64,000 nucleotides of DNA from an uncultured Christensenella sp. (lineage in GTDB: Bacteria > Bacillota > Clostridia > Christensenellales > DTU072): positions 19,387 through 83,386 of the forward strand of contig CASDZI010000007.1 in NCBI GenBank assembly GCA_949285605.1, in the 5' to 3' direction. Below are positions 23,056-57,892 of the stretch, piece after piece. The translations under genes and the position numbers were made by a program. The stretch's first letter is position 1; the number at the start of each line of letters is the position of its first letter. The notes below the pieces were generated by a model that was not told the DNA's origin, made no database searches, and worked only from the letters and a program-made list of their open reading frames with translations.

Positions 23056-23067
23056 GGGTTTCCTCCT

Positions 23068-28448: not shown

Positions 28449-29539
28449 AAGTAAAAAAACTGTATCTGGAAAATTTCCTTTCTTACGCCAACGCTTACGT
28501 CGAGTTCTCGGACGGACTCAACGTCCTGGTGGGCAGTAACGCCGCAGGCAAGACCAATCTTGCCGAAAGCATCTATTACTGTTCGGTGGGGAAGTCGGCA
28601 AGGGGATTGAAGGATAAGGAGCTCATAAGATGGGGGGCGGAAAAGCCTTCCGCCAGGATAAGAATGGCGGTGGAAAGGCGGTTTTCCACCCACACCGTGG
28701 ATATTCGGATAGACGAACAGGGCAAAAAACGCATAACCGTGGACGAAATACCCATTTCCCGAATGGGAGAACTCATGGGGGCGGTCAATACCGTATATTT
28801 TTCCCCCGACGAAATGAAGCTCATCAAAGAGTCGCCTTCCGACCGCAGAAAGTTTATGGACGTAAGTCTGTGCCAGAGGGATAAGCTGTATTTTTACAAA
28901 CTTCTGGAATACAACAAACTTCTTGCGCAGCGGAACAAACTTCTGAAAAATTACAAGGGCAGTCCCGACCTTAGGAATATGAGCGACATAATCGTTGCCA
29001 AAATGGCGGAAACTCAGGAGTATATAATGAAAAAACGGGCTGGCTTCGTGTCCTCGCTTACTCCGCTCGCCGACGCCCGTCACCGCAGAATAACCTGCGG
29101 CAAGGAGGGACTTAAGCTGGATTACGAGACCGAAGAAGCGGATTTTTCCGACCTCAAAGGTTCGTTGAAAGCCCTTTACGAAAAGAATTTCGAGAAGGAC
29201 AGTCGATTGGAATATACCACCGTCGGGATACACCGTGACGACCTGAAGATAGTCGCAGGCGGCATCGACGTCCGTAAATTCGGGTCGCAGGGACAGCAGA
29301 GGACTTCGGTGCTCAGTCTGAAACTTGCCGAAGCCGACAGCTTTGCCGAAACCGAAAAGGAATATCCCGTGCTCATACTCGACGACGTGGCGAGCGAATT
29401 GGACAAAGACAGGCAGAAGGCCTTATTCGAAAGTCTGGACGGAATGCAGACTTTGGTGACGGCGACGGGGATCGCAGAGGAATTTTCCAAAGGAAAAATT
29501 TACGAAATAAAACAAGGAAAGATTACCGCAAGGAGTTAA
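28445..29539 (+). CDS. recF: DNA replication and repair protein RecF
   Basis: TTG 28445 overlaps the metA stop (gGTTGAaa). (M)KVKKLYLENFLSYANAYVEFSDGLNVLVGSNAAGKTNLAES carries the Walker A motif; the C-terminus has LILDDVASELD (Walker B). Length is ~364 aa. Confidence 0.85.
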   Translation: MKVKKLYLENFLSYANAYVEFSDGLNVLVGSNAAGKTNLAESIYYCSVGKSARGLKDKELIRWGAEKPSARIRMAVERRFSTHTVDIRIDEQGKKRITVDEIPISRMGELMGAVNTVYFSPDEMKLIKESPSDRRKFMDVSLCQRDKLYFYKLLEYNKLLAQRNKLLKNYKGSPDLRNMSDIIVAKMAETQEYIMKKRAGFVSSLTPLADARHRRITCGKEGLKLDYETEEADFSDLKGSLKALYEKNFEKDSRLEYTTVGIHRDDLKIVAGGIDVRKFGSQGQQRTSVLSLKLAEADSFAETEKEYPVLILDDVASELDKDRQKALFESLDGMQTLVTATGIAEEFSKGKIYEIKQGKITARS

Positions 29540-33802: not shown

Positions 33803-36235
33803 TTGTTACGCTTAAAAAATATTACGAAAGATTACGTTCTCGCAGGGAACGATACCGTGCACGCCCTGAAAAGGATAAGTCTTAATTTCCGAGCCAACGA
33901 ATTCGTGGCGATCCTGGGCCCGTCGGGGTGCGGCAAGACCACGCTTATGAATATCGTGGGCGGTCTGGACAAATACACGTCGGGCGAACTTATCATAGAC
34001 GGGAAAACGACTTCCGCTTTTACCGACGCCGAGTGGGACAATTACCGCAATAAAAGGATAGGATTCGTATTCCAGAACTACAACCTCATATCGCACCTGA
34101 CGGTATTGAGCAACGTGGAGCTGGCGTTGACTTTATCGGGGGTAGCTCCAGAGGAACGCAAACGCAGGGCGTTGGAAGCGCTGAAGAGGGTAGGGCTTGC
34201 CGAGCAGTATTCCAAAAAGCCCAATCAGCTTTCGGGCGGACAAATGCAAAGAGTGGCTATAGCGAGGGCTTTGGTGAACTCTCCGGAAATTTTGCTTGCC
34301 GACGAACCCACCGGGGCGTTGGATACCGCTACCAGCGAACAGATAATGGAACTTATAAGAGAACTTTCCGCCGAAAAACTGGTTATTATGGTCACGCATA
34401 ACCCGTCGCTTGCGGAAAAATATTCCACCCGTACCGTGAAAATGCTGGACGGAGAAATAATTTCCGACTCCGACCCCTACGACGGGCGGGAAGAAAAATC
34501 GCTTTCGGAGGAAATTTCTTCGATTTCAGAAGAGAGCGTTCTTGAGCAAAATCCCGAAAAAGGCGAAAACGCTCCCGAGAGCGTAATGAAAGACGACGTC
34601 GAAATTCAAAAGAATAACAAGTCGGAGAAAAAAAAGAAAAACAAGGCGAAAAAAGAAAAAACGAGTATGTCGTTCATTACGGCTTTATCCCTTTCTTTCC
34701 GCAATCTGATAACGAAAAAAGGCAGGACGATACTGACTTCGATAGCCGGGAGCATAGGGATAATAGGCATTGCGTTGATACTTGCCATAAGCAACGGAAT
34801 GAACGCATTCATATCCAAGACCACCACCGAGACGATGAGCGCCAACCCCATTACCGTAGAAACCGAAGCCCTCAACCTGGAAGCGGCGATGGAAGCCATG
34901 AACGCGGCGAGCGATATAGATATTTTCCCGGCGGCGGAAAAGATATTCATTCAAAGGACCTCGGCTTTTTCACAGCTGATTTCCAAGAACAAGATCACCG
35001 CCGGCTATGTCGATTATCTCAAGGAAAATCTGAATAAAGACTGGTACAACGACGTGCTTTACAAGACGGGGCAGGAGCTGAACGTCCTGACGGAATTCGA
35101 CGGGGCGGTAAGGAAAGTCACGCAGACCTCGAGCTGGCAGATGCTGGTCACCAACGACCTCGTGGGTATGCAGTACGACGTACTGGCAGGCCGCCTGCCC
35201 GAAGGGGAAAAGGATCTTCTTATAATCGTGGACGAGTACAACCGCCTGAGCGAAAGCGTGCTTATAAGTTTAGGCTTTACTTCCGCAGAAGCGGAAAACG
35301 ACTCTCTGGATTTTTCCGAAGTGTTGGGCAAAACTTACAGAGTGCTTTCTTCCGACGAAGCCTACGCAATTAGCGACGGCAGGATTATCAGCCGTTTTAC
35401 GACGGATATATCGTCCTCGGCAGGGCTCGAAGCGTCTGTGTGCGGAATAGTGAGAATTAAAGAAACCACGGATTTGGGCGTCCTTTCCACGGGTATAGGA
35501 TACACAAAAGAGCTTTATAATGCAATTCAGGAAAAGAACCTCAACAGCGACTGCGTGCAGTTCATTAAGTCCGATCCGACGGTGGATGCGGAGACGGGCG
35601 ATCCTTACGTTTCCGACGGAAAAGGGACTGTCGAAGAAAAATACGAAGAGACGTTGAGAAAATACGGCGGTATCTCCACCCCGGATTACATAGCCGTATA
35701 CGCCAAGGATTTCAATACGAAGGCGGAGATAAAAAAGGTTCTCGACGCATACAACGATTCGCACGAGGACAAGATAATTTATACCGACCTCAGCGAGCTT
35801 ATGGGAGACATGCTGAGCAGCATGGTGGACGTGATAAGTTATGTCCTGATAGGATTTACCGCCATAAGCTTGATAGTAAGTTCGGTCATGATAGGGATAA
35901 TAACCTACGTCTCCGTCATCGAGCGCACTAAGGAGATAGGTATCCTGCGAGCCATCGGCGCCAGAAAAAAGGATATAGCGAGGGTATTCAATGCCGAGAC
36001 GTTTATCATAGGATTTTTTGCAGGGCTGGTGGGAGTCGTCGTGGCGGGGATACTGACCTTCCCCGTCAATGCCATTATCGCCGCTCTTGCCGGAGTGAGC
36101 GGAATCGCCTCGTTGAATCCTTTGCATTGCGTCATTCTGATAGCGGTAAGTATCTGTCTTACGCTCATATCGGGACTTATCCCTGCGAGCAAGGCTTCGA
36201 GAAAAGACCCGGTCACCGCATTGCGGACCGAGTAA
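33803..36235 (+). CDS. ABC transporter, fused ATP-binding and FtsX/MacB-type permease
   Basis: TTG start after GGAGG. Walker A GPSGCGKTT, signature LSGGQMQRVAIARA and Walker B LLADEPTGALD. A Lys-rich linker is followed by a large extracytoplasmic domain and the C-terminal FtsX helices. Confidence 0.85.
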   Translation: MLRLKNITKDYVLAGNDTVHALKRISLNFRANEFVAILGPSGCGKTTLMNIVGGLDKYTSGELIIDGKTTSAFTDAEWDNYRNKRIGFVFQNYNLISHLTVLSNVELALTLSGVAPEERKRRALEALKRVGLAEQYSKKPNQLSGGQMQRVAIARALVNSPEILLADEPTGALDTATSEQIMELIRELSAEKLVIMVTHNPSLAEKYSTRTVKMLDGEIISDSDPYDGREEKSLSEEISSISEESVLEQNPEKGENAPESVMKDDVEIQKNNKSEKKKKNKAKKEKTSMSFITALSLSFRNLITKKGRTILTSIAGSIGIIGIALILAISNGMNAFISKTTTETMSANPITVETEALNLEAAMEAMNAASDIDIFPAAEKIFIQRTSAFSQLISKNKITAGYVDYLKENLNKDWYNDVLYKTGQELNVLTEFDGAVRKVTQTSSWQMLVTNDLVGMQYDVLAGRLPEGEKDLLIIVDEYNRLSESVLISLGFTSAEAENDSLDFSEVLGKTYRVLSSDEAYAISDGRIISRFTTDISSSAGLEASVCGIVRIKETTDLGVLSTGIGYTKELYNAIQEKNLNSDCVQFIKSDPTVDAETGDPYVSDGKGTVEEKYEETLRKYGGISTPDYIAVYAKDFNTKAEIKKVLDAYNDSHEDKIIYTDLSELMGDMLSSMVDVISYVLIGFTAISLIVSSVMIGIITYVSVIERTKEIGILRAIGARKKDIARVFNAETFIIGFFAGLVGVVVAGILTFPVNAIIAALAGVSGIASLNPLHCVILIAVSICLTLISGLIPASKASRKDPVTALRTE

Positions 36236-36263
36236 AAAAGCTTTCTTTCCGATTGATCGGGAG

Positions 36264-36327: not shown

Positions 36328-36334
36328 TTCGACA
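36328..36334 (-). promoter_or_regulatory. Perfect Spo0A box (TGTCGAA) upstream of the Spo0A-like gene
   Basis: ttcgaca on the plus strand equals TGTCGAA on the minus strand. A 5/7 copy (TGTCGTG) sits at 36357-36363. Confidence 0.4.
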
Positions 36335-36462
36335 GATTATTACAAACATAGACATTTGTCGTGGGCTTAACGATAAAATCGGCGTTTACAATTCAAAATG
36401 CGGAGTGATATTATATTTTTGCGTTGTTTAGACGGCAAAATCTGACAAAACGGGAGATTTGT

Positions 36463-37176
36463 ATGAAAAGTTTTACATTGTTTTTTTGCGAAAGCGGAGA
36501 GTCGGCAAAGAGGAATATAGAGAGTTACTATTCGGATAAACCGTTCGTTACGGTCAAGGTGGTGCAGGACGCCGAGCAATATCTTTCGGCGGGGAAACCC
36601 GACGTGGCGGTGATTTCCGAAGATTTCAACTATTTGCCTTTGATCAGGCTGTTTGCGGCTAACCGTCCCAAAATAATACTCGCCTGTAAGGAAGAGAGCG
36701 ACGAAATGGAAAAGGTACCGCACGATGCAGTGGTATTCAAGCCGTATTCATTAAACGACGTCACCGAGATAGCCGCAGGTCTTGCCGAGGGGAAGGAGGA
36801 AAAGATAAAACTTGTCGGCAACAAAGCCATCGACGAAAAACTGAGCAATATTTTCATAAGAGCGGGGATTCCGCCGCACATCAAGGGATACCAGTATCTT
36901 CGCACGGCGGTCAAGTTCGCCATAGACCGACCCGACATAGTCAACAGCATAACCAAAAAACTTTATCCTGCGGTAGCCGAATATTACGATACCACTCCGA
37001 GCAAGGTGGAAAGGGCGATAAGGCACGCCATAGAGGTGGCTTGGAGCAGGGGCAGGATAGAGAACATCAACGCAATTTTCGGAATAAAGATCTACGGTAA
37101 AGGCGACAAACCCACCAACGGCGAACTCATAGCGCTGGTCGCCGACAAAATGGTCATCGAGCTTATGCCCGAATAA
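36463..37176 (+). CDS. Spo0A-like transcription regulator: canonical Spo0A C-terminal DNA-binding domain, degenerate receiver domain
   Basis: The C-terminus matches the Spo0A_C signature closely: GIPPHIKGYQYLRTAV, ITKKLYPAVAEYYDTTPSKVERAIRHAIEVAWSRG, KPTNGELIALVADKM. The N-terminal ~105 aa are receiver-like, but the acidic-pocket and phospho-acceptor positions read C-E and S by eye alignment. ATG 36463 follows GGGAGA. Confidence 0.8.
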   Translation: MKSFTLFFCESGESAKRNIESYYSDKPFVTVKVVQDAEQYLSAGKPDVAVISEDFNYLPLIRLFAANRPKIILACKEESDEMEKVPHDAVVFKPYSLNDVTEIAAGLAEGKEEKIKLVGNKAIDEKLSNIFIRAGIPPHIKGYQYLRTAVKFAIDRPDIVNSITKKLYPAVAEYYDTTPSKVERAIRHAIEVAWSRGRIENINAIFGIKIYGKGDKPTNGELIALVADKMVIELMPE

Positions 37177-37220: not shown

Positions 37221-37256
37221 AACCGTTTTGGTCGAAAAGACGAAACGGTTTTTTAT
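37221..37256 (+). terminator. Intrinsic terminator
   Basis: aaccgttt ... aaacggtt stem followed by T6. Confidence 0.7.
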
Positions 37257-37402: not shown

Positions 37403-37735
37403 ATGCAAAAAATGCTTGTAAAAGTCAACAAAGAAAAAATGAAAGAACTCGGTATAAGCGAGTACTATATAGACCTCACGTTGCACGACGCATTCGACGA
37501 GGGGCATTTTTTTGTGGAAGAACAAGAGGACGGAGCTATTCTGTATAGCGGCAATCCGGAATATCCGAACTATTTGGGGCTCTTCGGGATAGCTTATTCC
37601 ATATTAAGCGACGACGAAATTTTTATGTCGGTCTGTGAAAAATGGATATGGTATGATAACGATGATACAGGCGACGGTTCTTTTGCCGAAGAAGACGTGT
37701 TGGAAGTGATAAAAAATGACGAAAATTTCGACTGA
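37403..37735 (+). CDS. Small acidic hypothetical protein (110 aa)
   Basis: AAAGGTGG RBS. No signal peptide or TM helix. Asp/Glu-rich, with no motif I recognise. Confidence 0.5.
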   Translation: MQKMLVKVNKEKMKELGISEYYIDLTLHDAFDEGHFFVEEQEDGAILYSGNPEYPNYLGLFGIAYSILSDDEIFMSVCEKWIWYDNDDTGDGSFAEEDVLEVIKNDENFD

Positions 37736-37906: not shown

Positions 37907-40900
37907 ATGAAACAGAAAACTTTACGGGTATTATTGCTTTTGATAATATTTCTCAATGCGATTTTCCTGATTTCCTGTTCCGAAGGATATAACGGTCCCG
38001 TCAACCTCCCCGAAGAGGAAGAGGAGGCGCCCGACGTCGTCTATTACAAGATCACCGTGGACAACGGTGCGGAAATTGTCGTTTACGAGAAGGAAGCCGA
38101 CGTTTCGCTCACCGTCACCGCCGCAGACAAAAAGAATATGGTCTTTATCGGCTGGGAGTACGAAGGTAAAACCGTTTCCTCCGACAAGACTTACACCTTC
38201 ACCGTCAAAGAAAACGCTTCCCTTAACGCCAAATACTTAACTTCTTATAAAATTTATCTGGATGCCGGACTTGCCGGGACCGAATACGAAGCCGTAACGG
38301 TGGGAGAGGGGCAGGATTATACCTTGCCCGTCCCCGTTCTGGAAAATTATTACTTCCTCGGCTGGTATGACGGGATAATGCCTTACACCGACGAAAAGGG
38401 CAATGCGCTGAAACCTTTCTCCGCTCCCTACGACGTCACGCTGAAAGCCGTATTCGAAGAAAAACCCGTTTATACCGTCATCTGGCAAAGTATTTATACC
38501 GACGAGAACGGACAGGAAGCCGTTTATTCGGAGAGTGCGGTAGAGAAACACCTTGACGAAAAGATCACTCTTACCGCCGTAGCCGTCCCCGACAACCGTT
38601 TCGTGGGGTGGTACGACGAGAAAGGTGATTGTGTATCGAGCGAAACCGAATTTAGCTTTAAGGTGGTTTCCGACGTGACTTACCGTGCAAAATACGAAGA
38701 GGCGTTCACCGTGAACGTCTTGTTCGGGAGCGGGTCGGGCACTTACGCCAAAGACACGATAGTAGACATCACCGCCCAGACTACGCCTACGGGAAAGTAT
38801 TTTAAGGGGTGGAGATACATCGGGGAAAGCGAGTTGCTGGAAGGCGAGCAATATGAAAAAAATACCTTTAAGTTGAAGGTTACCGAGTCCGTTTCTTTCG
38901 AAGCGGTATTCGAGTTTATAGACTATACTCTGACCTTCACCATGCAGGGCGGAAGCTACGGCGACAGTCCGGTAGAGTATCATAAAACCGAAGGAGTCCA
39001 CTACGGCGACGAAATAATCCCTCCCGTATCTCCTTCGGAAACGCATTACGTCTTTGCGGGCTGGTCGAGCTATCCCGCCCGTATGCCGGCTAACGATCTC
39101 ACCATATCCGGCAGACTTATCCCCGAAAAGCACACCGTCACCTTGGACAGCGGTATAATTTCGGCTAACGGAGCTTCTTACGGCGTATTCGATTACGGCA
39201 CGGAAATAACCGTCGCCCACAAGGAAATAACGGGCAAGCGATTCCTCTACTGGGCGGAGAACGGGGCGCAGGTCTCCTCGTCGAGTCCGTACACGTTCAC
39301 CGTGGAAAGGAACGTCACCCTTACCGCTGTTTATGAAGACATTCTGTATAAACTCATTTATTACGTTTACGGAGCCGAATACGGCGATGACGGCGGAGTT
39401 TACCAAGAATTCGAACTGAAATACAAAGACCCCACGTTCAGTCTGCCCGCCATAAGCAAAGAGCATTACACCTTCAGCGGTTGGAGCAGGTTGCCGCAGG
39501 AAATGCCTGCTTACGACTATACGGTGAAGGGAACCTTCATTGTGGACAGACACACTCTTTCGGTAAATAACGGCTACATAAACGGCGATACGTCTTTGAC
39601 CGAAGACGAATTCGATTGGAACGAGGAAGTCACGGTCACCGCAGTCATTCCCACGGGAAAAACCTTTAACGGTTGGTATTTAGGCGATATAAGGGTTTCG
39701 CAGGAGGTAGAATACACTTTCCCTCTCGCAGGAAATACCGATCTGGAAGCACGGACGGATTTTATTCAGTATGAACTCGTCTTTATGGTGTCGGGACAAA
39801 CGGGTACCGAAGGTTTCGTCGAGTATCACAGAACCACCTCTATTTACAACTCTACGGTAAGGTATCCGACTACCCCCGCCGAGGAGCATAAGGAATTCGG
39901 CGGTTGGTCGCTTTCTCCCGACAAAGCCGTGACTCCTCCCGAAAAAATGCCCGCCGAGAACCTGACTTTATACGGGAAGCTTTCCTGGGTAAGACATACG
40001 GTAGTCCTTTCCGGCGGAGTTATCGTAGAAGTCAACGGCAGTCCCGTCGAGAATGTTTCCCGAGCGACCTACGATTACGGAACGGAATTGAAGATTTCGG
40101 CTCAGCCCGAAAGAGGATACCATTTTACCGGGTGGACGATTAACGGCCAGTTGGTAAGCGAAGCCGGACAGGATTACGCTTTTACTTTGACCAAAGACAT
40201 TACCCTGACGGCGACTTCCGCCCTGACAGAGTATCAAGCCGTATATTACACGCAAAAAGACGGCTCCGGGTATACCGAGTGGAAGAGTGAAACTTTCCAC
40301 TATAACGAAAATTATAATTTAGCCTCCGCAGAGGTCGTTGACCATTACGACTTCGACGGTTGGTACTACGCAAACGGAGATGAAGCTCCTGCAAGTCTGA
40401 TAACTTCCGACGAAAATCTGGAGTTCTACGGAAATTACAATATTCAGCGACATACGTTTACCGTGGTGGGAGGGACCATAAACGGTTATGACGAGACCAC
40501 GGTCGAAGTGCCGTTCGGCACCTGTCTGACCATCGAAGCCACCGTTCCCGTAGGAAAAGTTTTCCGCAGATGGACTTCTTACGGGCTTGCGCCCGTTACC
40601 GTCAATCCATATGACGCCACCGTTACCGGCGACGTTACCTGGAAGGCGGAATTTGCCGTGGCGAAATACGACTTGACGGTGACCGACGGCAGGATAAAAT
40701 CCGTGGACAACGTCGATATCTCGGAAGACGTTTACAGAGGAACTTACGACTACGGCACCGTTATAGAGCTGCAACCGAAGAACGCCGAAGCCGGTAAAGA
40801 ATTCTCCCACTGGAAGATCAACGGAAAAAAGTTTTATAAACCGGACTACGATTTTGAAATAACCGAAGATGTCACGGCGGTGGCGGTTTTCGAGTTTATA

Positions 40901-43900
40901 GACTATACGCTCACTTTCACTATGCAGGGCGGAAGTTACGGCGATACTCCCGTAACGTTCGGCGAGCCGAAGATTATGCATTACGGCGACGAAATAATCC
41001 CTCCCTCCGCTCCTTCGGAAACGCATTACGTTTTCGCAGGCTGGTCGAGTTATCCGTCCCGTATGCCGGCAGACGATCTCACCATATCCGGCAGACTTAT
41101 TCCCGAAAAGCATACGCTTACCGTAAACGGCGGCAGCGGAAGCGGAACCTATAATTACGACGATACCGTTACGGCAACGGCAGAAATTCCAGTAGGACAG
41201 AGTTTTGTGAAATGGGTGGATACCGAAGGAACGGTATTAAGCACCGAAGCAATATACTCGTTCACCTTGGAAAAGGATACCGAAATAACAGCAGTTTACG
41301 AATATATCGACTATACTCTTACCTTTATGCTCTACGGAGCCGAGTACGGGGAAACAGGACGCGCTTATTACACCGAAACTTTACATTACGGCGATACGGT
41401 CAAAGATCAGTCTTTGCCCGTGGATAAAGAAAATTACGCTTTTTCGGGCTGGTACGTCGAAGGAGAGGAAACGATACCCACTACCATGCCGGCGGCCGAC
41501 CTCACGATCAGGGGCGATTACGAATACATCTATATCATGACCGATTTGGGCGACGGTACTTATTCCGTTGCGGCGAACACCGCCATTAAAGGCACTTATC
41601 CGTCCACGATAACCGTTCCTTCGCTTTATGACGAAAAACCCGTAGTAAAAGTGGAAAATCAAGGCTTTGCCGACAGGACCGAATTGACAAACGTAACTAT
41701 ACCCGACAGCGTAACCGTTATAGGCGAGGGAGCTTTTTCGGGTTGTACTTTGCTTACTTCGCTTACCTTACCCGTTTCGGGCGGAGATTATTTAGGGTAT
41801 ATGTTCGGAGCGACGTCGGCAGACAGCCAGGATAAGGCGGTACCGTCGAGTCTTACCGAAGTCGTCTATAACGGTACGACTATTCCCGACAAATATTTCT
41901 ATAAATTGACTTCGCTCAAAACCGTGCGTTTCCCGAATACGGAATCGGTAGGGAACAACGCCTTCGACGGAGCGGGACTCACCTCCCTCGTGTTGCCCGA
42001 AACGCTGACAACCGTTGGCGAATACGCTTTTGCCAACCTCAATTACCTCGCTTCGATAAAATATCGTCGGACCGACGTATTCAACTTTGCGGACAAAGAC
42101 GTTTTCGAAATGGCGGGCAGGAGTGTAAACTCACTCGAAGTGACCTTTAACGACGGGGTAACGCATATCCCCGCAAATATGTTTGCGGTCACCGACGCCT
42201 CCGACAGACCGAAGGTGACTTCCGTCGTTTTCCCGACCACGCTTAAGTCGGTAGGAGCTTACGCTTTCAGCGGACAGGACGGACTGACGGCGGATATAGT
42301 TCTGCCCGAAGGCGTTACCGAGATAGGGGCAAGCGCTTTTGCCGGAACGAAAACGAAGAAGGTAGTTATTCCTTCCACCGTGACGAGTATCGGAAGCGGA
42401 GCCTTCTCGGCGTTGACTTCCCTTACCGAAGTGGAATATAACGCCGTCAATGCGTTTACCGACGTGTCCGAAGGACTTTACGCTTTCCGTGAAGACGAGA
42501 ACGAGTTTACGGTAATTATCGGAAGCGCCGTTGAGACCATTCCCGACAATCTGTTCCGTCTTTCGGGGGTAACGGAAGTGACTTTTGCCGAAAACGGAAG
42601 CCTTACAAGTATCGGAAGTTATGCCTTCGCTTACAGTAAACTCACCTCTGTTTCCTTGAGCGGCGACTTGACGCTCGGAGAAAAAGCCTTCTACGGTTGC
42701 GCTTCGCTCGGGTCTGTTTACTATAACGTACCGAACGCTGCCGACTTTACTTCTTCCTCTCTCGTGTTCGGGTCGTCCTCCGCTGCGACGGGATATGCCG
42801 TTAAGACGGGATATGCCGTTACGATAGGAAAAGACGTTATAAGGATCCCGTCTTACCTGTTCGGGAAACCCGAAAGCGACATAAATAATTACGTCAATGC
42901 GACTACCGTTACTTTCGAAAGCGGCAGTTCGTGTAAAGAAATAGCTTCTTACGCTTTCGCAAACGGCACCCTCGGCGGTAGTTTGGAGATACCCTTTACC
43001 GTCAGAGAAATAGGAGAATACGCTTTTTACGGGAACGATCTTACCGAGGTGTCCGTGCCTTCCACCACCACTACGATAGGAGCAAAAGCCCTTGCCGGTA
43101 ACGGGACCGTCACCGTCAACTGCCAGGTGAGTTTCTCGTTCGAGACATGGGCGACAGATTGGGTGGACGACAACGCCACGGTAAATTATTCCGTCGGGGC
43201 AATGACAGACGGCGATTTCAGTTACGTGGTAAACGAAGGCAGGGCTTACATTACGCATTACCACGGCACGGCGACCAAGGTCGTTGTCGGAAAAGTAGGA
43301 ACAGAAGGCGGTACTGCGGAAGGATACGACGTTTACGGCGTGGGACTGACCTTCAAGGGGAACAAATCGATCACTTCCGTCACGCTTCCTGCTACCGTAG
43401 CCGAGATCCAGGCTACGGCGTTCGAAGGATGCACCGCTTTAGAGTCCTTTACCCATAACGGCAATGTGACCGTCATAGGCAGCAAGGCGTTTTACGGGTG
43501 CAATAATTTAAGTACCCTCACTCTTAACTTTACGGGAAGCGAGATAGGTAGCGAAGCTTTCGCCGGGTGCGGAAAACTTACTTCCTTCGACTTTGAGACG
43601 GTCACCTCGATAGGCGACAGGGCTTTTGCTAACAGCGGACTTACTTCGGCGCTTCTTTCCTCGGCGGTAGTTATCGGGAACGAGGCGTTTGCCGATTGCG
43701 CTTCGCTTACGAGCGTGACTTTGTCCTCCGTGGAAATTATCGGCACGGGAGCGTTCGCTTCCTGTTCGTCTCTGCAGGAATTCATTTTCGACGGAAACGA
43801 CAATTACGAATTGCGTAGCGGCGCTCTGTACCGTATATCCGACAATACGTTACTGTATTATCCTGCTTCAAGCGGTGCGACCTCTTTCGACGTTCCCGAC

Positions 43901-46900
43901 GGAACGGAAAACATAGCCGACGGAGCGTTCGCAAACGCCGTCAACTTGACGGAAATCACGTTACCGTCCACGCTTACTTCGATAGGAAGGGGAGCGTTCG
44001 CCGGGTGCGTCGAGCTTAAGACGGTCAATATAAACAGCGTTGCGCTTAACGACCTGACGCCTGACAGCGATATTTTCCCCGATGCGACTTCTCTTACCGT
44101 CAACGTAAGCGAAGGCGTAACGAGGTTGCCCGATTACTTGTTTGACGGGGCGACGGTTTCTGCCGTAACTCTCCCGACCGCAGGACTTACTTATATCGGG
44201 GAATACGCTTTCTATAACAACGCCTTGACCGCTCTTACCATACCCGAAAGCGTAACCGAAATCGGGGAATACGCTTTCTACGGCAGTACTCTCGAAACCC
44301 TTTATTACAACGCTAACGTAGAGAGTTTCGTTGCCGACGAAAACGGCAATACCGTATTCGGACCCATGGCGAGCGGAGCGGTACTCGATTTGGGCGAAAA
44401 CGTAACGGTAATAGGGGACAACTTCCTTTATAACTCTAACCTCGCCGTCGTAAATCACGGTACGTCGCAGGTGGTACGGATAGGCGAAAACGCTTTCCGA
44501 GGGACGAGTCTTACCTCGGTCACGATAAAAGAAAGCGTGACGGACGTCGGTTCTTACGCATTTGCGGAAATAACCACCCTTAACGAGATAACGGTAGATT
44601 CTTCCGCAAACTTCACCGGAACGGGCATATTCGACGGTTCGGGAACGGACAGCGTGACGTTCAAAGCTACGGGCAGTAACGTATCGAGCGGACTTTTCGC
44701 TTCTGCAAATAAACCTTCTCTGACGAGTATAACCTTGGAAAACACCGAGACCGTAGGAGACAAAGCTTTCGACGGTATAAACACGGTAACTTCGCTGACG
44801 TTGCCGTCCACGCTTACGACTATAGGGTCGAGAGCTTTCGCCGGAATGAACGCCATATCCGTTCTGACCGTTCCCGAGAACGTGACCACGATAGGGAACG
44901 AAGCGTTTTACGGCTGGGACGGACTTACCGAACTTAATTTCAACGCAACAAGCGTTGCCGACTTCGAACCCGGAAACGGCGTATTCGGAGTAGAGACAGG
45001 CGTAAGTCGCTCTTACGTCCTGAACGTAGGGGACAAGGTAGCGAGGATACCCGCACTATTAACGGTTTCCGACGCATTGAGCGACGCCGAGCCTGTCGAA
45101 AACGCACAGATAACGGCGGTTAATTTTGCGGCTTCTTCGGCGTTGACGTTGACGGAGATAGGCCATTACGCTTTCGCCGCATTGACGAATGCTACCATAA
45201 CCAACTTCCCGACTTCGGTGGTGACGATAGGAAGCTACGCTTTCTATAAAACGGCGGTAGGAGCGTTGACTTTGACGGCGGCGACGTCCATAGGAGATTA
45301 CGCTTTTAACTCGTCATCTCTTACTTCGCTTACCTTAACTTCCTCGTCTTACACGATAGGCAGTTACGCTTTCGGAAACAATACGGCACTGGCGTCGGCA
45401 GATCTCGGAGAAGGGGTGACGGCGATAGGACAAGGAGCGTTCTACGGCGATACGGCGTTGGAAACGGTCGTTATGGAAAACAACGACATAACCAACATAG
45501 GGCAAGGAGCGTTCGAAGGGTGCGCTTTACTGACGAGCTTCAATCTCGGGACGGAGATAACGAACGTTGCGGCAAATCTGTTTGACGGGTGCGCATCCCT
45601 CGCTTCGATAACCATACCCGACAGCGTAATTTCCATAGGAGCGTACGCTTTCAGAGGTTGTGCGTTGACTTCCATAACTTTAGGCGAAAATCTGACTTCC
45701 TTAGGAGAAGGAGCGTTTGCCGATTGCGTATACGTAACCGCAATAAATTACTATTCCGTCAATTTGGGGAACGCAAGCGAAAATTCGGCGATATTCGAGT
45801 CGGTGGGCTCGGGAACTTCGGGCGTGACCCTCACGATAGGTTCTGCGATCAGGAAAATGCCCGATTATCTGTTCTATGTACCCGAACGGGTGGGAAGCGA
45901 CGGAAGTGCAATCGATGTCGACGCCCGCATTACGGTTATAGAATATGGAGCAAGAACGGGGACAACCATCGCCGAAACTTCTTTGGAAATAGGGATCGCA
46001 ACAATCAGGGGATTGCCGATAGAAGAAGTTACCCTTCCCGATTTTGTGACTAAAGTGGGCGACTACGCTTTTGCAAATTGTTCGGAAGCGACCGTTCTTA
46101 CCTGGGGCGAAGGACTTACCAAAGTAGGCTATATGTCTTTTGCCGGAATGACGGCGGTGACGGAATTTAACCACAACGCCGTTTCTTTGGGCGACAACAA
46201 CTTTACCACGCAACAGGAATCGAGTGAAAGCAATCCTCAAAGTAACGACGTCTTCTATAATTTCGGCAACAACGTTACCATGAACGTAGGCGAAGGCGTG
46301 ACGAAGATTCACAGACGTATGTTTATGATATATTCCGATGAAGACGTAACGCTGAAGCCGAAGATACAGACGTTGAACCTACCTGCCACCGTCACCGAAA
46401 TAGGCGAGGATGCGTTCAACGGCGTAGCGACGTTGACGACGGTAAATTACGCCGAGGGAAGCAAACTCGACAGTATAGGCAACAATGCCTTCAAAGGGAC
46501 TTCCATAACGGCAATAACTCTGTATCTGGACGCCACGACGTTGGGGACCGGGGCGTTTGCGGATTGCGTAAAGGTGACCGAAGTTACCTTGACCGTTTAC
46601 GACGGCACAAAAAAGACAGAAAATTATCCTACGGTTTATGCCGATACTTTTGCTAATCTCGGGAAAGCTACCGCAGGCGTAAAGGTGACCGTCAAAAACA
46701 ATCTGGATATTATCCCCGCCAATATTTTCTATGCCAATTCACCCGAAACCGCTGCCAACATAACCGCAGTGTTCCTTGAGAAGAGGTATCTCGACGATAT
46801 AGTCATAAAGCCGGATGAAGATGAGTTTTCGGTAATATATCAGTATATGGACGACGCTATTACGATAGGCGACAACGCTTTCCGCAACGTAGCGAGTCTG

Positions 46901-47539
46901 ACGACTTTGAATTTCGAAGGGACGGCTCACAGCGGAGAAGACTATTTCCGTAAAATAAAAACGATAGGATCATACGCATTCAGTGGAACGAGTTTAGGAG
47001 GAGAGCTATTGTTCCACTGCGAAAACGGCACGAATATAGGCTCTCACGCTTTCGACGGCACGAAAATCACCCGCATAAAACTCTATTCCAGCACGGTTTT
47101 GACCGTGGGCGAATACGCTTTTGCCGAATGTGCGGAATTGACGGGTATAACTTTAGTCAGGGAATATACTGTCGGATTGGACGATAATAACGATATTATG
47201 GGAACAGTAGGAGATTACGCATTCCAAAATGCGGTCAAACTCAATTTCGATACCATGTATCCGAAATTCACGTCCATAGGGAACTATGCGTTTGACGGGT
47301 GCGTCGCTCTTACGTCTATCGGAGACTTCTGCGAAGGACTTAGCTATATTGGTTCTTACGCTTTCCGAGGAACCGCAATAAATACGGTTTACTCTTTAAC
47401 TGTTACCGAAAACGGATATAGATGGGACCAGAAAGCGGAATGTAAACTTACCGTACCGACAACAGCGCAAGTTCACGAAAACGCCTTCGACGGAATGGGC
47501 GGTACGGTCGAGGTTCCGAAGGCTACGGTAGAGGAATAA
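37907..47539 (+). CDS. Giant (3210 aa) surface lipoprotein: ~15 InlB-B-repeat (Listeria-Bacteroides repeat) modules followed by ~1900 aa of BspA-type leucine-rich repeats
   Basis: GGGAGGA RBS. Signal peptide with lipobox (LLLLIIFLNAIFLISCSEG). Recurrent GY.F.GW motifs from about 38.1-41.5 kb (YYFLGWYDG, RFVGWYDEKG, HYVFAGWSS, HYTFSGWSR, YHFTGWTING, and others). From about 41.6 kb, recurrent ..L..V.IP.SVT.IG..AF.GC..L LRR_5-type units. There is no LPXTG sorting signal at the C-terminus. Confidence 0.9.
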   Translation: MKQKTLRVLLLLIIFLNAIFLISCSEGYNGPVNLPEEEEEAPDVVYYKITVDNGAEIVVYEKEADVSLTVTAADKKNMVFIGWEYEGKTVSSDKTYTFTVKENASLNAKYLTSYKIYLDAGLAGTEYEAVTVGEGQDYTLPVPVLENYYFLGWYDGIMPYTDEKGNALKPFSAPYDVTLKAVFEEKPVYTVIWQSIYTDENGQEAVYSESAVEKHLDEKITLTAVAVPDNRFVGWYDEKGDCVSSETEFSFKVVSDVTYRAKYEEAFTVNVLFGSGSGTYAKDTIVDITAQTTPTGKYFKGWRYIGESELLEGEQYEKNTFKLKVTESVSFEAVFEFIDYTLTFTMQGGSYGDSPVEYHKTEGVHYGDEIIPPVSPSETHYVFAGWSSYPARMPANDLTISGRLIPEKHTVTLDSGIISANGASYGVFDYGTEITVAHKEITGKRFLYWAENGAQVSSSSPYTFTVERNVTLTAVYEDILYKLIYYVYGAEYGDDGGVYQEFELKYKDPTFSLPAISKEHYTFSGWSRLPQEMPAYDYTVKGTFIVDRHTLSVNNGYINGDTSLTEDEFDWNEEVTVTAVIPTGKTFNGWYLGDIRVSQEVEYTFPLAGNTDLEARTDFIQYELVFMVSGQTGTEGFVEYHRTTSIYNSTVRYPTTPAEEHKEFGGWSLSPDKAVTPPEKMPAENLTLYGKLSWVRHTVVLSGGVIVEVNGSPVENVSRATYDYGTELKISAQPERGYHFTGWTINGQLVSEAGQDYAFTLTKDITLTATSALTEYQAVYYTQKDGSGYTEWKSETFHYNENYNLASAEVVDHYDFDGWYYANGDEAPASLITSDENLEFYGNYNIQRHTFTVVGGTINGYDETTVEVPFGTCLTIEATVPVGKVFRRWTSYGLAPVTVNPYDATVTGDVTWKAEFAVAKYDLTVTDGRIKSVDNVDISEDVYRGTYDYGTVIELQPKNAEAGKEFSHWKINGKKFYKPDYDFEITEDVTAVAVFEFIDYTLTFTMQGGSYGDTPVTFGEPKIMHYGDEIIPPSAPSETHYVFAGWSSYPSRMPADDLTISGRLIPEKHTLTVNGGSGSGTYNYDDTVTATAEIPVGQSFVKWVDTEGTVLSTEAIYSFTLEKDTEITAVYEYIDYTLTFMLYGAEYGETGRAYYTETLHYGDTVKDQSLPVDKENYAFSGWYVEGEETIPTTMPAADLTIRGDYEYIYIMTDLGDGTYSVAANTAIKGTYPSTITVPSLYDEKPVVKVENQGFADRTELTNVTIPDSVTVIGEGAFSGCTLLTSLTLPVSGGDYLGYMFGATSADSQDKAVPSSLTEVVYNGTTIPDKYFYKLTSLKTVRFPNTESVGNNAFDGAGLTSLVLPETLTTVGEYAFANLNYLASIKYRRTDVFNFADKDVFEMAGRSVNSLEVTFNDGVTHIPANMFAVTDASDRPKVTSVVFPTTLKSVGAYAFSGQDGLTADIVLPEGVTEIGASAFAGTKTKKVVIPSTVTSIGSGAFSALTSLTEVEYNAVNAFTDVSEGLYAFREDENEFTVIIGSAVETIPDNLFRLSGVTEVTFAENGSLTSIGSYAFAYSKLTSVSLSGDLTLGEKAFYGCASLGSVYYNVPNAADFTSSSLVFGSSSAATGYAVKTGYAVTIGKDVIRIPSYLFGKPESDINNYVNATTVTFESGSSCKEIASYAFANGTLGGSLEIPFTVREIGEYAFYGNDLTEVSVPSTTTTIGAKALAGNGTVTVNCQVSFSFETWATDWVDDNATVNYSVGAMTDGDFSYVVNEGRAYITHYHGTATKVVVGKVGTEGGTAEGYDVYGVGLTFKGNKSITSVTLPATVAEIQATAFEGCTALESFTHNGNVTVIGSKAFYGCNNLSTLTLNFTGSEIGSEAFAGCGKLTSFDFETVTSIGDRAFANSGLTSALLSSAVVIGNEAFADCASLTSVTLSSVEIIGTGAFASCSSLQEFIFDGNDNYELRSGALYRISDNTLLYYPASSGATSFDVPDGTENIADGAFANAVNLTEITLPSTLTSIGRGAFAGCVELKTVNINSVALNDLTPDSDIFPDATSLTVNVSEGVTRLPDYLFDGATVSAVTLPTAGLTYIGEYAFYNNALTALTIPESVTEIGEYAFYGSTLETLYYNANVESFVADENGNTVFGPMASGAVLDLGENVTVIGDNFLYNSNLAVVNHGTSQVVRIGENAFRGTSLTSVTIKESVTDVGSYAFAEITTLNEITVDSSANFTGTGIFDGSGTDSVTFKATGSNVSSGLFASANKPSLTSITLENTETVGDKAFDGINTVTSLTLPSTLTTIGSRAFAGMNAISVLTVPENVTTIGNEAFYGWDGLTELNFNATSVADFEPGNGVFGVETGVSRSYVLNVGDKVARIPALLTVSDALSDAEPVENAQITAVNFAASSALTLTEIGHYAFAALTNATITNFPTSVVTIGSYAFYKTAVGALTLTAATSIGDYAFNSSSLTSLTLTSSSYTIGSYAFGNNTALASADLGEGVTAIGQGAFYGDTALETVVMENNDITNIGQGAFEGCALLTSFNLGTEITNVAANLFDGCASLASITIPDSVISIGAYAFRGCALTSITLGENLTSLGEGAFADCVYVTAINYYSVNLGNASENSAIFESVGSGTSGVTLTIGSAIRKMPDYLFYVPERVGSDGSAIDVDARITVIEYGARTGTTIAETSLEIGIATIRGLPIEEVTLPDFVTKVGDYAFANCSEATVLTWGEGLTKVGYMSFAGMTAVTEFNHNAVSLGDNNFTTQQESSESNPQSNDVFYNFGNNVTMNVGEGVTKIHRRMFMIYSDEDVTLKPKIQTLNLPATVTEIGEDAFNGVATLTTVNYAEGSKLDSIGNNAFKGTSITAITLYLDATTLGTGAFADCVKVTEVTLTVYDGTKKTENYPTVYADTFANLGKATAGVKVTVKNNLDIIPANIFYANSPETAANITAVFLEKRYLDDIVIKPDEDEFSVIYQYMDDAITIGDNAFRNVASLTTLNFEGTAHSGEDYFRKIKTIGSYAFSGTSLGGELLFHCENGTNIGSHAFDGTKITRIKLYSSTVLTVGEYAFAECAELTGITLVREYTVGLDDNNDIMGTVGDYAFQNAVKLNFDTMYPKFTSIGNYAFDGCVALTSIGDFCEGLSYIGSYAFRGTAINTVYSLTVTENGYRWDQKAECKLTVPTTAQVHENAFDGMGGTVEVPKATVEE
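38906..39133 (+). repeat. Intragenic direct repeat, copy 1 (~228 bp)
   Basis: Near-identical at the DNA level to 40886-41113, at an offset of exactly 1980 bp. Encodes AVFEFIDYTLTFTMQGGSYGD...HYGDEIIPP..PSETHYVFAGWSSYP.RMPA.DLTISGRLIPEKHT. Confidence 0.85.
40886..41113 (+). repeat. Intragenic direct repeat, copy 2 (~228 bp)
   Basis: See copy 1. The flanks are nearly identical, including third codon positions. The central ~35 nt (40951-40980 versus 38971-39000) are strongly diverged. Confidence 0.85.
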
Positions 47540-55539: not shown

Positions 55540-55595
55540 AAAAAAATTATATAATTTTTTTTAAGATAAATCAAGCGGAAACCCGCAACGGGAAA

Positions 55596-57864: not shown

Positions 57865-57892
57865 AAAAAACCGTAAAAAAAGCCGTTTCTTG
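57865..57892 (-). terminator. Intrinsic terminator of the DUF1846 gene (contains a 0A box)
   Basis: Read on the minus strand: gccgtttc-gacaa-gaaacggc followed by T7. Confidence 0.7.
57881..57887 (+). promoter_or_regulatory. Perfect Spo0A box (TGTCGAA) in spoIIE promoter region
   Basis: TGTCGAA lies 33 nt upstream (in the spoIIE sense) of a TATAAT -10 element (rc of 57843-57848), that is, around the -40 position. Confidence 0.45.

What the first reader, a model, noticed from the sequence alone, without database searches (positions are those of the whole stretch)
36463..37176. Spo0A-type regulator with a degenerate, apparently non-phosphorylatable receiver domain, outside the conserved spo0A neighbourhood
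The C-terminal ~110 aa are an excellent match to the Spo0A DNA-binding domain, including the recognition region (..TPSKVERAIRHAIEVAWSRG..KPTNGELIALVADKM). I aligned the N-terminal domain by eye to B. subtilis and C. difficile Spo0A. The acidic pair D10-D11 reads C-E (FFCESG). The phospho-acceptor D56 (LVLDIIMP) aligns with Ser in VAVISEDFN. T84 (MLTAFG) aligns with Ala (ILACKE). Only K106 (ILKPF / VFKPY) is kept. The receiver is also ~15 aa shorter. The gene is flanked by an ABC transporter gene and a giant surface-protein gene, not by spoIVB/recN as is typical for spo0A in endospore formers. There are two readings. It may be a Spo0A paralogue that binds 0A boxes independently of phosphorylation, acting as a competitor or constitutive activator, possibly controlling the adjacent surface-protein locus. 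Alternatively, this lineage's master regulator has escaped phosphorelay control. I am not aware of either being described.
Basis: partly seen in the sequence, partly recalled or inferred. Interest (0 to 1): 0.65.

Follow-up and report, generated by a model that had tools for sequence, protein, structure and literature searches.

The report
Spo0A regulator with dead phosphorylation pocket
This gene encodes a relative of Spo0A, the master switch for bacterial spore formation, that keeps an intact DNA-binding half but has lost the aspartate through which Spo0A is normally switched on, so an uncultured gut or rumen Clostridia lineage that still carries sporulation genes has a Spo0A-type regulator that must be controlled some other way.

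Summary
ORF 36463-37176 (+) encodes 237 aa. The C-terminal half is a high-confidence Spo0A DNA-binding domain. The N-terminal half folds as a (βα)5 receiver, and its closest relatives by profile are Spo0A receiver domains, but Pfam Response_reg does not detect it. A profile-profile alignment maps the five catalytic residues of B. subtilis Spo0A as D10→E10, D11→S11, D56→S52, T86→C75 and K108→K93. Only two of the five catalytic positions keep a usable residue, and the acceptor Asp is gone.

It is not a one-off. It belongs to a large, vertically inherited family of ~240-aa Spo0A homologues from uncultured Clostridia. Most members already lack the second metal-binding Asp but keep the acceptor Asp. 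Only this sub-lineage (Ser) and its sister (Gly) have lost it. The N-domain is still under purifying selection (dN/dS 0.12).

Nine of ten lineages have a perfect 0A box (TTCGACA) upstream of a σA-type promoter of the gene, which points to control by a Spo0A-type protein, probably itself.

A MacB-type ABC transporter gene is a recurrent upstream neighbour. The giant surface-protein gene is not.

The window also holds spoIIE, spoIIR, sleB and ypeB. I could not establish whether a canonical spo0A also exists in this genome.

Verdict: a new variant of a known kind, of moderately high interest.

The parts
36463..37176 (+). spo0A-like gene, 237 aa (identical to database protein P0001)
   Evidence: ORF and translation. 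The identical protein is found on 4 other contigs. 23 sequence variants are all intact. dN/dS against the 90% relative is 0.09.
36463..36786 (+). N-terminal pseudo-receiver domain, residues 1-108: β1 4-9, α1 13-23, β2 29-34, α2 37-43, β3 48-52, α3 58-63, β4 70-75, α4 80-84, β5 89-92, α5 97-108. Pocket residues are E10, S11, S52, C75 and K93.
   Evidence: AF2 model with pLDDT 90. Foldseek matches to receiver domains. hhalign probability 99.2% to canonical Spo0A REC. The family profile's best PDB hits are Spo0A REC domains. No PF00072 hit. dN/dS 0.12.
36787..36822 (+). inter-domain linker, residues 109-120
   Evidence: The only low-confidence block of the model, with mean pLDDT 58.
36823..37173 (+). 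Spo0A C-terminal DNA-binding and transcription-activation domain, residues 121-237, including the invariant SKVERAIRHAIEVAW recognition region
   Evidence: Pfam PF08769 at E 3.2e-38. PDB 1fc3 and 1lq1 at E about 1e-32. Foldseek TM 0.85-0.91. 40 invariant columns across 70 homologues. dN/dS 0.04.
36328..36334 (-). perfect 0A box (TGTCGAA on the minus strand, TTCGACA as read on the plus strand), 135 bp before the start codon and about 50 bp upstream of the -35 element
   Evidence: The same box in the same orientation occurs in 9 of 10 lineages, at -126 to -137 in seven of them, at -114 in L020 and at -181 in L021, which has an N gap. Background is 0.04 per 300 bp.
36385..36414 (+). σA-type promoter-like site, TTTACA-N18-TATTAT with a TG extension
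   Evidence: Equivalent TTTACA ... TGnTATnAT elements can be read in the upstream sequences of the relatives printed.
36452..36456 (+). ribosome-binding site GGGAG, 6 nt before the ATG
   Evidence: Read directly from the sequence.
37221..37255 (+). intrinsic-terminator-like hairpin (AACCGTTT...AAACGGTT followed by a T run) after the gene
   Evidence: Read directly from the sequence. The scan tool did not list it, so it is an inference.
33803..36235 (+). fused MacB-type ABC ATPase + FtsX permease (810 aa), a recurrent upstream neighbour that is followed by its own terminator-like hairpin
   Evidence: Pfam ABC_tran + FtsX. The best NCBIfam match is MacB, below its cut-off. Full-length homologues sit directly upstream of the spo0A-like gene in L008 (89%), L014 (59%), L015 (38%) and L016 (37%), although the other flanking genes differ in L015 and L016. 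Terminator-like site at 36246-36263.
37403..37735 (+). 110-aa ORF with no family match, found only in the same species, so probably not part of the system
   Evidence: No Pfam or NCBIfam hit. tblastn finds it only in same-species contigs L001-L004.
37907..47539 (+). 3210-aa LRR_5 (BspA-type) / Flg_new repeat surface protein. It is a neighbour only in the closest relatives and is listed as context, not as part of the system.
   Evidence: Pfam. Adjacent in L001-L003, L008 and L009 only. Absent at the orthologous locus L014 and elsewhere.

Best explanation
The gene encodes a Spo0A-family transcription factor whose receiver domain has become a pseudo-receiver.

Shown:
- The C-domain is a fully conserved Spo0A DNA-binding and activation domain.
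- The N-domain is a folded (βα)5 domain descended from the Spo0A receiver, and it is still under purifying selection.
- Three of the five catalytic residues are gone, including the acceptor Asp (S52), the Thr (C75) and the metal-binding DD2 (S11).
- The gene belongs to a large, vertically inherited family in uncultured Clostridia. That family lost DD2 long ago and lost the acceptor Asp only in this sub-lineage.
- The family's own promoter carries a conserved perfect 0A box.

Inferred:
- The protein binds canonical 0A boxes (TGTCGAA), including the one upstream of its own σA-type promoter. This would give an autoregulatory loop like that of canonical spo0A.
- Its activity is not set by His-Asp phosphotransfer. 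It is set instead by how much protein is made and/or by something that acts on the retained N-domain, such as a protein partner, dimerisation, or a ligand or redox input.
- The N-domain is kept because it still gates or dimerises the C-domain.
- Whether this protein is the genome's only Spo0A or works beside a canonical copy is open. I put that at about even odds.
For: Domain identity.

Residue mapping: (hhalign probability 99.2%, E 1e-19).

Descent from the Spo0A receiver: the family N-domain profile hits Spo0A REC structures (9phz, 5wq0, 1dz3/1qmp) ahead of all other response regulators. 16 of 28 family N-domains still hit PF00072.

Fixation and selection: S52, C75, E10 and K93 are invariant in 23 variants. 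dN/dS is 0.12 for the N-domain and 0.04 for the C-domain at dS about 0.6.

Late, clade-restricted Asp loss: the relative at the orthologous locus (L014, same seven upstream genes) keeps Asp. In an NJ tree the Ser clade and the Gly clade (P0030, P0162) are sisters inside the Asp-retaining family.

0A box: a perfect TTCGACA in the same orientation occurs in 9 of 10 lineages whose flanking genes mostly differ. Background is 0.04 per 300 bp.

The pocket composition fits the published description of pseudo-receivers: DD2 is non-acidic in about 80% of them, and D, T and K are each kept in about 65% (PMC12632262).
Against: No biochemical data exist.

E53 and D54 follow S52 directly and are conserved in the clade, so phosphorylation at an unconventional residue, or of Ser52 by a Ser/Thr kinase, is not excluded.

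0A-box binding is inferred from conservation of the C-domain and the cis-element. The box could instead be the target of a different, canonical Spo0A in the same cell.

One lineage (P0030, locus L013) has only a degenerate box.

The window as a whole is not enriched for 0A boxes: 15 found against 11 expected.

The AF2 inter-domain geometry is uncertain (pTM 0.55), so nothing can be said about whether the N-domain occludes the C-domain.
Confidence: 0.72

Rival explanations
1. Sole Spo0A. This is the lineage's only Spo0A, the true orthologue moved away from spoIVB. Entry into sporulation, or whatever Spo0A controls here, has escaped His-Asp phosphotransfer altogether.
For: - The N-domain is most similar to Spo0A receivers specifically.
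- The C-domain is almost as close to B. subtilis Spo0A (56/115 identical) as those of canonical clostridial Spo0As are (64-66/115).
- A conserved 0A box upstream of the gene is a feature of genuine spo0A genes in my own knowledge of B. subtilis.
- 107 of 118 Spo0A-positive Firmicutes carry a single spo0A (10.1101/2022.02.25.481979).
- Intact spoIIE, spoIIR, sleB and ypeB in the window imply a working initiation regulator.
- No second Spo0A_C lies in the 64-kb window or within ±6-10 kb (less where the contig ends) of any of the related loci fetched.
Against: None of the contexts examined for this family has spoIVB or recN next to the gene. No complete genome could be inspected. Ten Clostridiales genomes are known to have two spo0A paralogues and one has three. 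Many non-sporulating Oscillospiraceae keep 75-97 of 112 core sporulation genes, so sporulation genes in the window do not prove that the organism sporulates.
Confidence: 0.45
2. Paralogue. A canonical, phosphorylatable Spo0A exists elsewhere in the genome. This protein is a phosphorylation-independent paralogue that shares 0A boxes with it, as competitor, primer or constitutive activator, and is itself under Spo0A control through its upstream 0A box.
For: - It lies outside the canonical locus in every lineage examined.
- The receiver is extremely divergent: 13/105 identical to B. subtilis, against 36-48/115 for canonical forms.
- TIGR02875 scores below its cut-off.
- Spo0A paralogues are documented in Clostridiales.
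- Other divergent Spo0A_C proteins exist in Oscillospiraceae and Ruminococcus MAGs, including a 121-aa protein that is C-domain only.
Against: No co-resident canonical copy was seen in any of about 0.3 Mb of fetched sequence. The one candidate checked, the Glu-type P0100, is from a different organism with 29% GC. The recognition helix is invariant, so there is no sign of a new DNA specificity.
Confidence: 0.45
3. Still phosphorylated, at another residue. Candidates are D54 or E53 in the β3-α3 loop, Ser52 by a Hanks-type kinase, or regulation through Cys9 or Cys75 redox chemistry.
For: S52-E53-D54 is conserved in all 23 variants, apart from one that has E at position 54. Cys9 is nearly invariant across the family and C75 is invariant in the clade. 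Ser/Thr phosphorylation and thiol switches are known for some atypical regulators (reviewed in PMC12632262; a thiol example is PMC9321951).
Against: DD2 and the Thr are both missing, so Mg2+-dependent phosphotransfer chemistry is unlikely. Cys9 is replaced by Phe in the 90% sister lineage. With 17% of N-domain sites varying, three invariant residues are not statistically remarkable. No kinase gene lies nearby.
Confidence: 0.1
4. Decaying relic. The gene is an inactive remnant in a lineage that is losing sporulation.
For: Pocket residues are drifting (C9/F9 and A74/S74 polymorphisms). The sister lineage P0030/P0162 has an accelerated C-domain, 72% identical against 77-85% for other family members.
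Against: The ORF is intact in 23 variants from many samples. dN/dS is 0.09 overall and 0.12 in the N-domain at dS about 0.6. The promoter, the 0A box and the ribosome-binding site are conserved between the window and L008.
Confidence: 0.03

Closest known systems
Canonical Spo0A (B. subtilis P06534, C. difficile; TIGR02875; structures 1qmp, 1fc3, 1lq1)
   Same: Same two-domain architecture. The C-domain is 49% identical to B. subtilis, with an invariant recognition region. The N-domain is a (βα)5 fold most similar to Spo0A receivers. There is a 0A box upstream of its own gene. The genome carries spoIIE, spoIIR, sleB and ypeB.
   Different: The acceptor Asp, the Thr and DD2 are replaced by Ser, Cys and Ser. 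The β3-α3 'MPxxDG' loop is deleted. The score is below the TIGR02875 cut-off. There is no PF00072 hit. It is not next to spoIVB or recN.
Pseudo-receiver / aspartate-less receiver (ALR) response regulators (reviews PMC12632262 and PMC4395418; examples named there or known to me include ChxR, HP1043, RitR, GlnR and CmrT)
   Same: A receiver fold with missing catalytic residues fused to a DNA-binding output. DD1 acidic with DD2 non-acidic is the typical pseudo-receiver pattern. The mode of regulation is unknown.
   Different: None of the described examples has a Spo0A_C output. The word 'Spo0A' appears only in passing in PMC4395418 and not at all in PMC12632262. This N-domain matches neither PF00072 nor any other Pfam family, the minor pseudo-receiver families included.
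Phosphorylation-independent Spo0A mutants of B. subtilis (sad67 deletion in the receiver; isolated C-terminal fragment). From my own knowledge, not checked here.
   Same: They show that a Spo0A whose receiver no longer inhibits the C-domain can activate 0A-box promoters without the phosphorelay. The natural protein here also lacks part of the β3-α3/α3 region.
   Different: Those are laboratory alleles. Here the altered receiver is a natural, selected state found in many lineages, and it is not known whether it is constitutively active.
Spo0A paralogues in Clostridiales (10 genomes with two copies, Anaerostipes hadrus with three; Galperin et al. preprint 10.1101/2022.02.25.481979)
   Same: A precedent for more than one Spo0A-type gene per genome, and for Spo0A in non-sporulating Clostridia.
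   Different: That study does not discuss receiver degeneracy. In the main text, 'phosphoacceptor' and 'phosphorylation site' have no hits, and the single mention of 'receiver' only concerns tree building. The family described here has no named cultured member among the 120 best hits.

Membership tests
Spo0A (TIGR02875 equivalog, canonical sporulation master regulator) | Spo0A_C DNA-binding/activation domain (PF08769) | tested here: met
   E 3.2e-38, profile positions 3-103 of 104. PDB 1fc3 and 1lq1 at E about 1e-32. Foldseek TM about 0.9.
Spo0A (TIGR02875 equivalog, canonical sporulation master regulator) | N-terminal receiver domain homologous to the Spo0A receiver | tested here: met
   AF2 (βα)5 fold. 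hhalign probability 99.2%. The family profile's top PDB hits are Spo0A REC domains.
Spo0A (TIGR02875 equivalog, canonical sporulation master regulator) | Complete phospho-acceptor pocket (DD, D56, T86, K108 in B. subtilis numbering) | tested here: not met
   The residues are E10, S11, S52, C75 and K93.
Spo0A (TIGR02875 equivalog, canonical sporulation master regulator) | Whole-protein score at or above the curated equivalog cut-off | tested here: not met
   147.5 bits against a cut-off of 200. Only model positions 144-258 match.
Spo0A (TIGR02875 equivalog, canonical sporulation master regulator) | spoIVB-spo0A(-recN) neighbourhood (typical, not strictly defining) | tested here: not met
   Absent from the window and from all related loci examined.
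Spo0A (TIGR02875 equivalog, canonical sporulation master regulator) | 0A box or boxes in its own promoter region (autoregulation) | tested here: met
   Perfect TTCGACA at 36328-36334, conserved in 9 of 10 lineages. Actual binding was not tested.
Spo0A (TIGR02875 equivalog, canonical sporulation master regulator) | It is the regulator required for entry into sporulation, and the only copy in the genome | not testable with these tools
   The complete genome was not available. The genome-collection scan returned only 3 loci and not the source genome.
Pseudo-receiver / aspartate-less receiver response regulators | (βα)5 receiver topology | tested here: met
Pseudo-receiver / aspartate-less receiver response regulators | One or more of the five catalytic residues missing; for the ALR subset, the acceptor Asp missing | tested here: met
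   DD2, D and T are missing. Definitions are from PMC12632262 and PMC4395418.
Pseudo-receiver / aspartate-less receiver response regulators | Recognised computationally as a receiver (PF00072 or one of the minor pseudo-receiver Pfam families) | tested here: inconclusive
   The window protein has no hit at E<=10. 16 of 28 family N-domains hit PF00072 at E<=1.
Pseudo-receiver / aspartate-less receiver response regulators | Activity independent of Asp phosphorylation | not testable with these tools
   This needs biochemistry.

The most novel reading that the evidence does not exclude
This is the only Spo0A of a lineage that still makes endospores. If so, a natural group of Clostridia commits to sporulation without any His-Asp phosphotransfer to Spo0A. 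It would instead use transcriptional autoregulation, or an unknown input acting on a pseudo-receiver. That input might be connected to the recurrently adjacent MacB-type ABC transporter.
Probability: 0.2. Interest if true: 0.85.

Novelty: new variant of a known kind. Interest (0 to 1): 0.6.

Why it matters
Phosphorylation of Spo0A on Asp56 is treated as the universal trigger of endospore formation. Presence of spo0A is also used as the genomic marker of sporulation capacity in gut Firmicutes.

A large, uncultured clade has a Spo0A homologue with an intact DNA-binding domain and a degenerate receiver, and in this sub-lineage the acceptor Asp is gone. This has three consequences:

- **Annotation.** Pipelines miss these genes or name them only as 'Spo0A C-terminal domain-containing protein' or 'hypothetical', which biases sporulation predictions for gut and rumen MAGs.
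- **A natural experiment.** The family shows how a master developmental regulator can be rewired away from two-component control.
- **A testable system.** The conserved 0A box and promoter upstream of the gene give a concrete starting point: protein plus own promoter, with S52D/S52A mutants.

If a canonical copy coexists, the protein would be a model for how a phosphorylation-independent paralogue shapes a phosphorylation-gated regulon.

Tried and rejected
1. **Source genome or a second spo0A.** The paralogue question therefore stays open.
2. **N-domain search.** phmmer of the N-domain alone against 1.84 billion representatives gave only one real hit, the Gly-type P0162. The domain is too divergent for single-sequence searches, so I used family profiles instead.
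3. **0A box near spoIIE.** The box at 57891-57897 first looked like regulon evidence. It sits in the loop of the terminator hairpin of the preceding DUF1846 gene, so I did not count it.
4. **Other 0A boxes.** There are no perfect boxes upstream of the ABC transporter gene in four lineages, and none before the 110-aa ORF or the giant gene. There is no overall enrichment in the window.
5. **P0100 as a co-resident paralogue.** These Glu-at-acceptor homologues have a C-domain 75% identical to this one and come from the same sample series. I rejected the idea because their contigs are 29% GC against 48%, with tetranucleotide correlation 0.46.
6. **HMM from canonical Spo0A receivers.** It aligned the window N-domain only weakly (8 bits) and left a gap over the acceptor. 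This was superseded by the profile-profile alignment.
7. **RNA genes.** Rfam and tRNA scans of the window found nothing.
8. **Literature.** Searches for Spo0A with pseudo-receiver, aspartate-less, atypical, non-phosphorylatable or paralogue terms found no description of such proteins.
9. **Cluster look-up for organism names.** It returned none for the window protein. ArgS homologues place the organism only among unnamed 'Clostridia bacterium' MAGs, with 65-66% identity to Faecalibacterium and Eubacteriales MAG proteins.
Full report
**1. The gene and its two halves**

The ORF runs from ATG 36463 to TAA 37174-37176 on the plus strand and encodes 237 aa. GGGAG lies 6 nt before the ATG.

Pfam finds only Spo0A_C (residues 129-229, E 3.2e-38). 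The NCBI Spo0A equivalog TIGR02875 scores 147.5 bits against a cut-off of 200, and matches only through its C-terminal positions 144-258. The only PDB sequence matches are the Spo0A C-domains 1fc3 and 1lq1, at E about 1e-32 over residues 121-233. No Response_reg hit appears even at E<=10.

An AlphaFold2 model built on a 70-sequence alignment has mean pLDDT 90. Residues 4-108 form a β1α1β2α2β3α3β4α4β5α5 domain. A low-confidence linker covers 111-120, and a helical C-domain follows. Foldseek against the PDB puts the Spo0A C-domain first (TM 0.85-0.91). It then lists receiver domains, among them the Spo0A receivers 1qmp and 5wq0 (TMt about 0.7).

**2. Which residues occupy the catalytic positions**

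I aligned 28 N-domains of the family (A2) and 12 canonical Spo0A receivers that have all five catalytic residues (A3). The B. subtilis sequence in A3 was written from memory. The PDB alignments printed confirm most of it.

hhalign gives probability 99.2% and E 1e-19. The column mapping, B. subtilis to window, is:

| B. subtilis | Role | Window |
|---|---|---|
| D10 | DD1 | E10 |
| D11 | DD2 | S11 |
| D56 | acceptor | S52 |
| T86 | Thr | C75 |
| K108 | Lys | K93 |

- The Pro anchor before β4 (P80/P69) fixes the Thr register.
- S52 is the last residue of predicted β3 (48-52), exactly where the acceptor sits in receivers.
- MAFFT alignments of the full-length proteins agree.
- The β3-α3 loop motif 'MPxxDG' is absent.
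The conclusion stands.
- By the definitions in the 2025 pseudo-receiver review, this is a pseudo-receiver and an aspartate-less receiver (PMC12632262; PMC4395418).

**3. It is a member of a large family, and Asp loss is recent**

A search of 5.8 billion proteins found about 90 clusters of ~240-aa full-length relatives (44-64% identity, 97-100% coverage). Nearly all come from metagenomes and MAGs, and nearly all carry only the Spo0A_C Pfam label. The few that are named are called 'hypothetical', 'Spo0A C-terminal domain-containing protein' or, by JGI, 'response regulator (stage 0 sporulation protein A)'.

Among the 118 nearest homologues:
- 63 have an acidic DD1, a non-acidic DD2, and D, S/T and K. 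The typical motif is F-C-E-[TSP].
- Only 11 have the complete set of five residues.
- 17 lack the Asp: Ser x3, Gly x1, Glu x12, Asn x1.

The family N-domain profile hits Spo0A receiver structures (9phz, 5wq0, 1dz3/1qmp) ahead of every other response regulator. 16 of 28 N-domains still touch PF00072. The domain therefore descends from the Spo0A receiver and was not swapped in.

In an NJ tree, the Ser clade (P0001-P0003) and a Gly clade (P0030, plus P0162 from the 1.84-billion-protein search) are sisters nested within Asp-retaining members.

Locus L014 (P0021, 55% identical) has the same seven upstream genes as the window: a Cys/Met-metabolism PLP enzyme, HTS, recF, argS, PHP, Metallophos and ABC/FtsX. 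Its protein keeps the Asp. So the Asp was lost within an orthologous gene.

S52, C75, E10 and K93 are invariant in 23 sequence variants of the clade. C9/F9 and A74/S74 vary.

Against the 90% relative (L008), dS is about 0.6. dN/dS is 0.12 for the N-domain and 0.04 for the C-domain. The degenerate domain is maintained, not decaying.

**4. Organism and genomic context**

The window contains no rRNA or tRNA genes.

ArgS has its nearest named relatives in 'Clostridia bacterium' MAGs (68-73% identity) and in Faecalibacterium and Eubacteriales MAGs (65-66%). I read this as an uncultured lineage, probably near Oscillospirales, with vertical inheritance of the gene. The order-level placement is an inference.

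The window carries:
- spoIIR (23787-24320, passes its equivalog cut-off)
- sleB (23068-23790)
- ypeB (21754-23055)
- spoIIE-tilS-hpt (53738-57824)

. This suggests that the sporulation machinery is at least partly retained. However, non-sporulating Oscillospiraceae such as Faecalibacterium also keep spo0A and 75 of 112 core sporulation genes.

**5. Neighbours**

None of the contexts examined for this family has spoIVB or recN.

The fused MacB-type ABC ATPase/FtsX permease lies directly upstream in four lineages: the window/L008, L014, L015 and L016. Its homologues are full-length and 89, 59, 38 and 37% identical. In L015 and L016 the genes further out differ. It is absent in six other lineages. 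This is either ancestral synteny that has eroded or a weak functional link. The ABC gene has its own terminator-like site, and no 0A box precedes it.

The giant LRR_5/Flg_new protein is adjacent only in same-species and 90%-identical contigs. The 110-aa ORF is species-specific.

**6. A conserved 0A box**

A perfect TTCGACA, the reverse complement of the 0A box TGTCGAA, lies 135 bp before the start codon (36328-36334). It is about 50 bp upstream of a TTTACA-N18-TG-TATTAT promoter-like site.

The same heptamer in the same orientation occurs as follows:

| Locus | Position(s) relative to the start codon |
|---|---|
| L008 | -136 |
| L010 | -135 and -167 |
| L011 | -126 |
| L014 | -129 |
| L015 | -134 and -155 |
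| L016 | -136 |
| L019 | -137 |
| L020 | -114 |
| L021 | -181 (an N gap intervenes) |
| L013 (Gly-type) | no perfect box; AGCGACA at the corresponding position |

The background frequency of this oriented heptamer in all fetched DNA is 0.04 per 300 bp. Even allowing for a post-hoc choice of position, nine of ten lineages cannot be chance.

I infer that the gene is controlled by a Spo0A-type protein. That protein is most simply itself, as with canonical spo0A (own knowledge of B. subtilis). I also infer that the invariant recognition region (SKVERAIRHAIEVAW) still reads canonical 0A boxes.

**7. What remains open**

I could not inspect a complete genome. No second Spo0A_C region exists in the window or in any fetched locus. 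Together that is only about 0.3 Mb.

The Glu-type homologues (P0094-P0100 and others) come from a 29%-GC organism and are not co-resident.

Spo0A paralogues are documented in Clostridiales, and divergent Spo0A_C proteins exist in Oscillospiraceae and Ruminococcus MAGs. I therefore rate 'sole Spo0A' and 'paralogue' about equally likely.

**8. Novelty**

Full-text searches found pseudo-receiver and ALR reviews and Spo0A comparative-genomics papers. None describes Spo0A homologues with degenerate or Asp-less receivers. The library does not cover all journals, so this absence is not proof.

I classify the finding as a new variant of a known kind: a Spo0A-family regulator with a pseudo-receiver input. 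It has a family-wide dimension (DD2 loss), a clade-specific one (Asp and Thr loss), and a concrete testable cis-element.

Noticed in passing
L016 about -118, L019 about -119, L020 about -85 and L011 about -98 relative to the spo0A-like start codon; degenerate in the window around 36337-36350: The palindrome TTTTGTACAAAA (in three loci AATTTTGTACAAAAT) lies between the 0A box and the -35 element of the gene in several lineages. L016 and L019 each have a second copy further upstream. Its AATTTT...AAAATT flanks resemble a CodY box (own knowledge). It may be a second regulator's site.
   Followed up: partly
P0094-P0100, P0105, P0109, P0110 and P0118; loci L017 10001-10777 and L018 8708-9484: A second group of Spo0A homologues is PF00072-positive but has Glu at the acceptor position (VLMECVLP) and only one acidic residue in the DD pair. 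They come from a 29%-GC organism in the same sample series, are also not next to spoIVB, and have ATCGACA at the corresponding upstream position.
   Followed up: partly
L007 9935-10300 (Oscillospiraceae bacterium RGIG6106) and L006 9659-10597 (Ruminococcus sp. UBA4383): Other divergent Spo0A_C proteins: a stand-alone 121-aa ORF with the C-domain only, and a 312-aa Spo0A-like protein with a DD pair and an Asp but apparently no Lys (FLPEPYN). They suggest a wider range of Spo0A_C paralogues in this group.
   Followed up: no
window 9525-14070 (GC 0.32-0.33 over 10001-14000 against about 0.50 elsewhere): A low-GC island holds an ECF-type sigma factor (9525-10082), two ORFs with no family match (10067-10780 and 10856-11476) and an 861-aa subtilase (11485-14070). 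It may have been acquired horizontally.
   Followed up: no
window 6671-7339: A chloramphenicol acetyltransferase family gene (Pfam CAT, E 2e-60).
   Followed up: no
window 21754-24320 (-) and 53738-57824 (-): A spoIIR-sleB-ypeB cluster, and spoIIE-tilS-hpt in the same order as in B. subtilis. SpoIIE scores well below its equivalog cut-off (272 against 491 bits), so it is divergent.
   Followed up: partly
window 57891-57897: A perfect TGTCGAA lies 67 bp upstream of the spoIIE start codon, but in the loop of the terminator hairpin of the preceding DUF1846 gene. Whether it serves both roles is unknown.
   Followed up: partly
residue 9 of the protein (window 36487-36489) and alignment A2: A Cys immediately before the DD1 position (motif F-C-E) is at least 90% conserved across the family. 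It is replaced by Phe in the 90%-identical sister lineage. It might be a redox or metal ligand in the ancestral pocket.
   Followed up: no
L001 10943-11260 and 12190-12522; window 37403-37735: The species-specific 110-aa ORF between the regulator gene and the giant surface-protein gene is present in two diverged copies (62% identity) on one same-species contig. The region between the two genes is variable.
   Followed up: no
window 28445-29539: recF, which passes its equivalog cut-off, lies between an HTS-family homoserine O-acyltransferase gene and argS, not in the usual dnaA-dnaN-recF-gyrB arrangement. The gene order from the Cys/Met-metabolism PLP enzyme through recF and argS to the ABC transporter is conserved in L014.
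   Followed up: no
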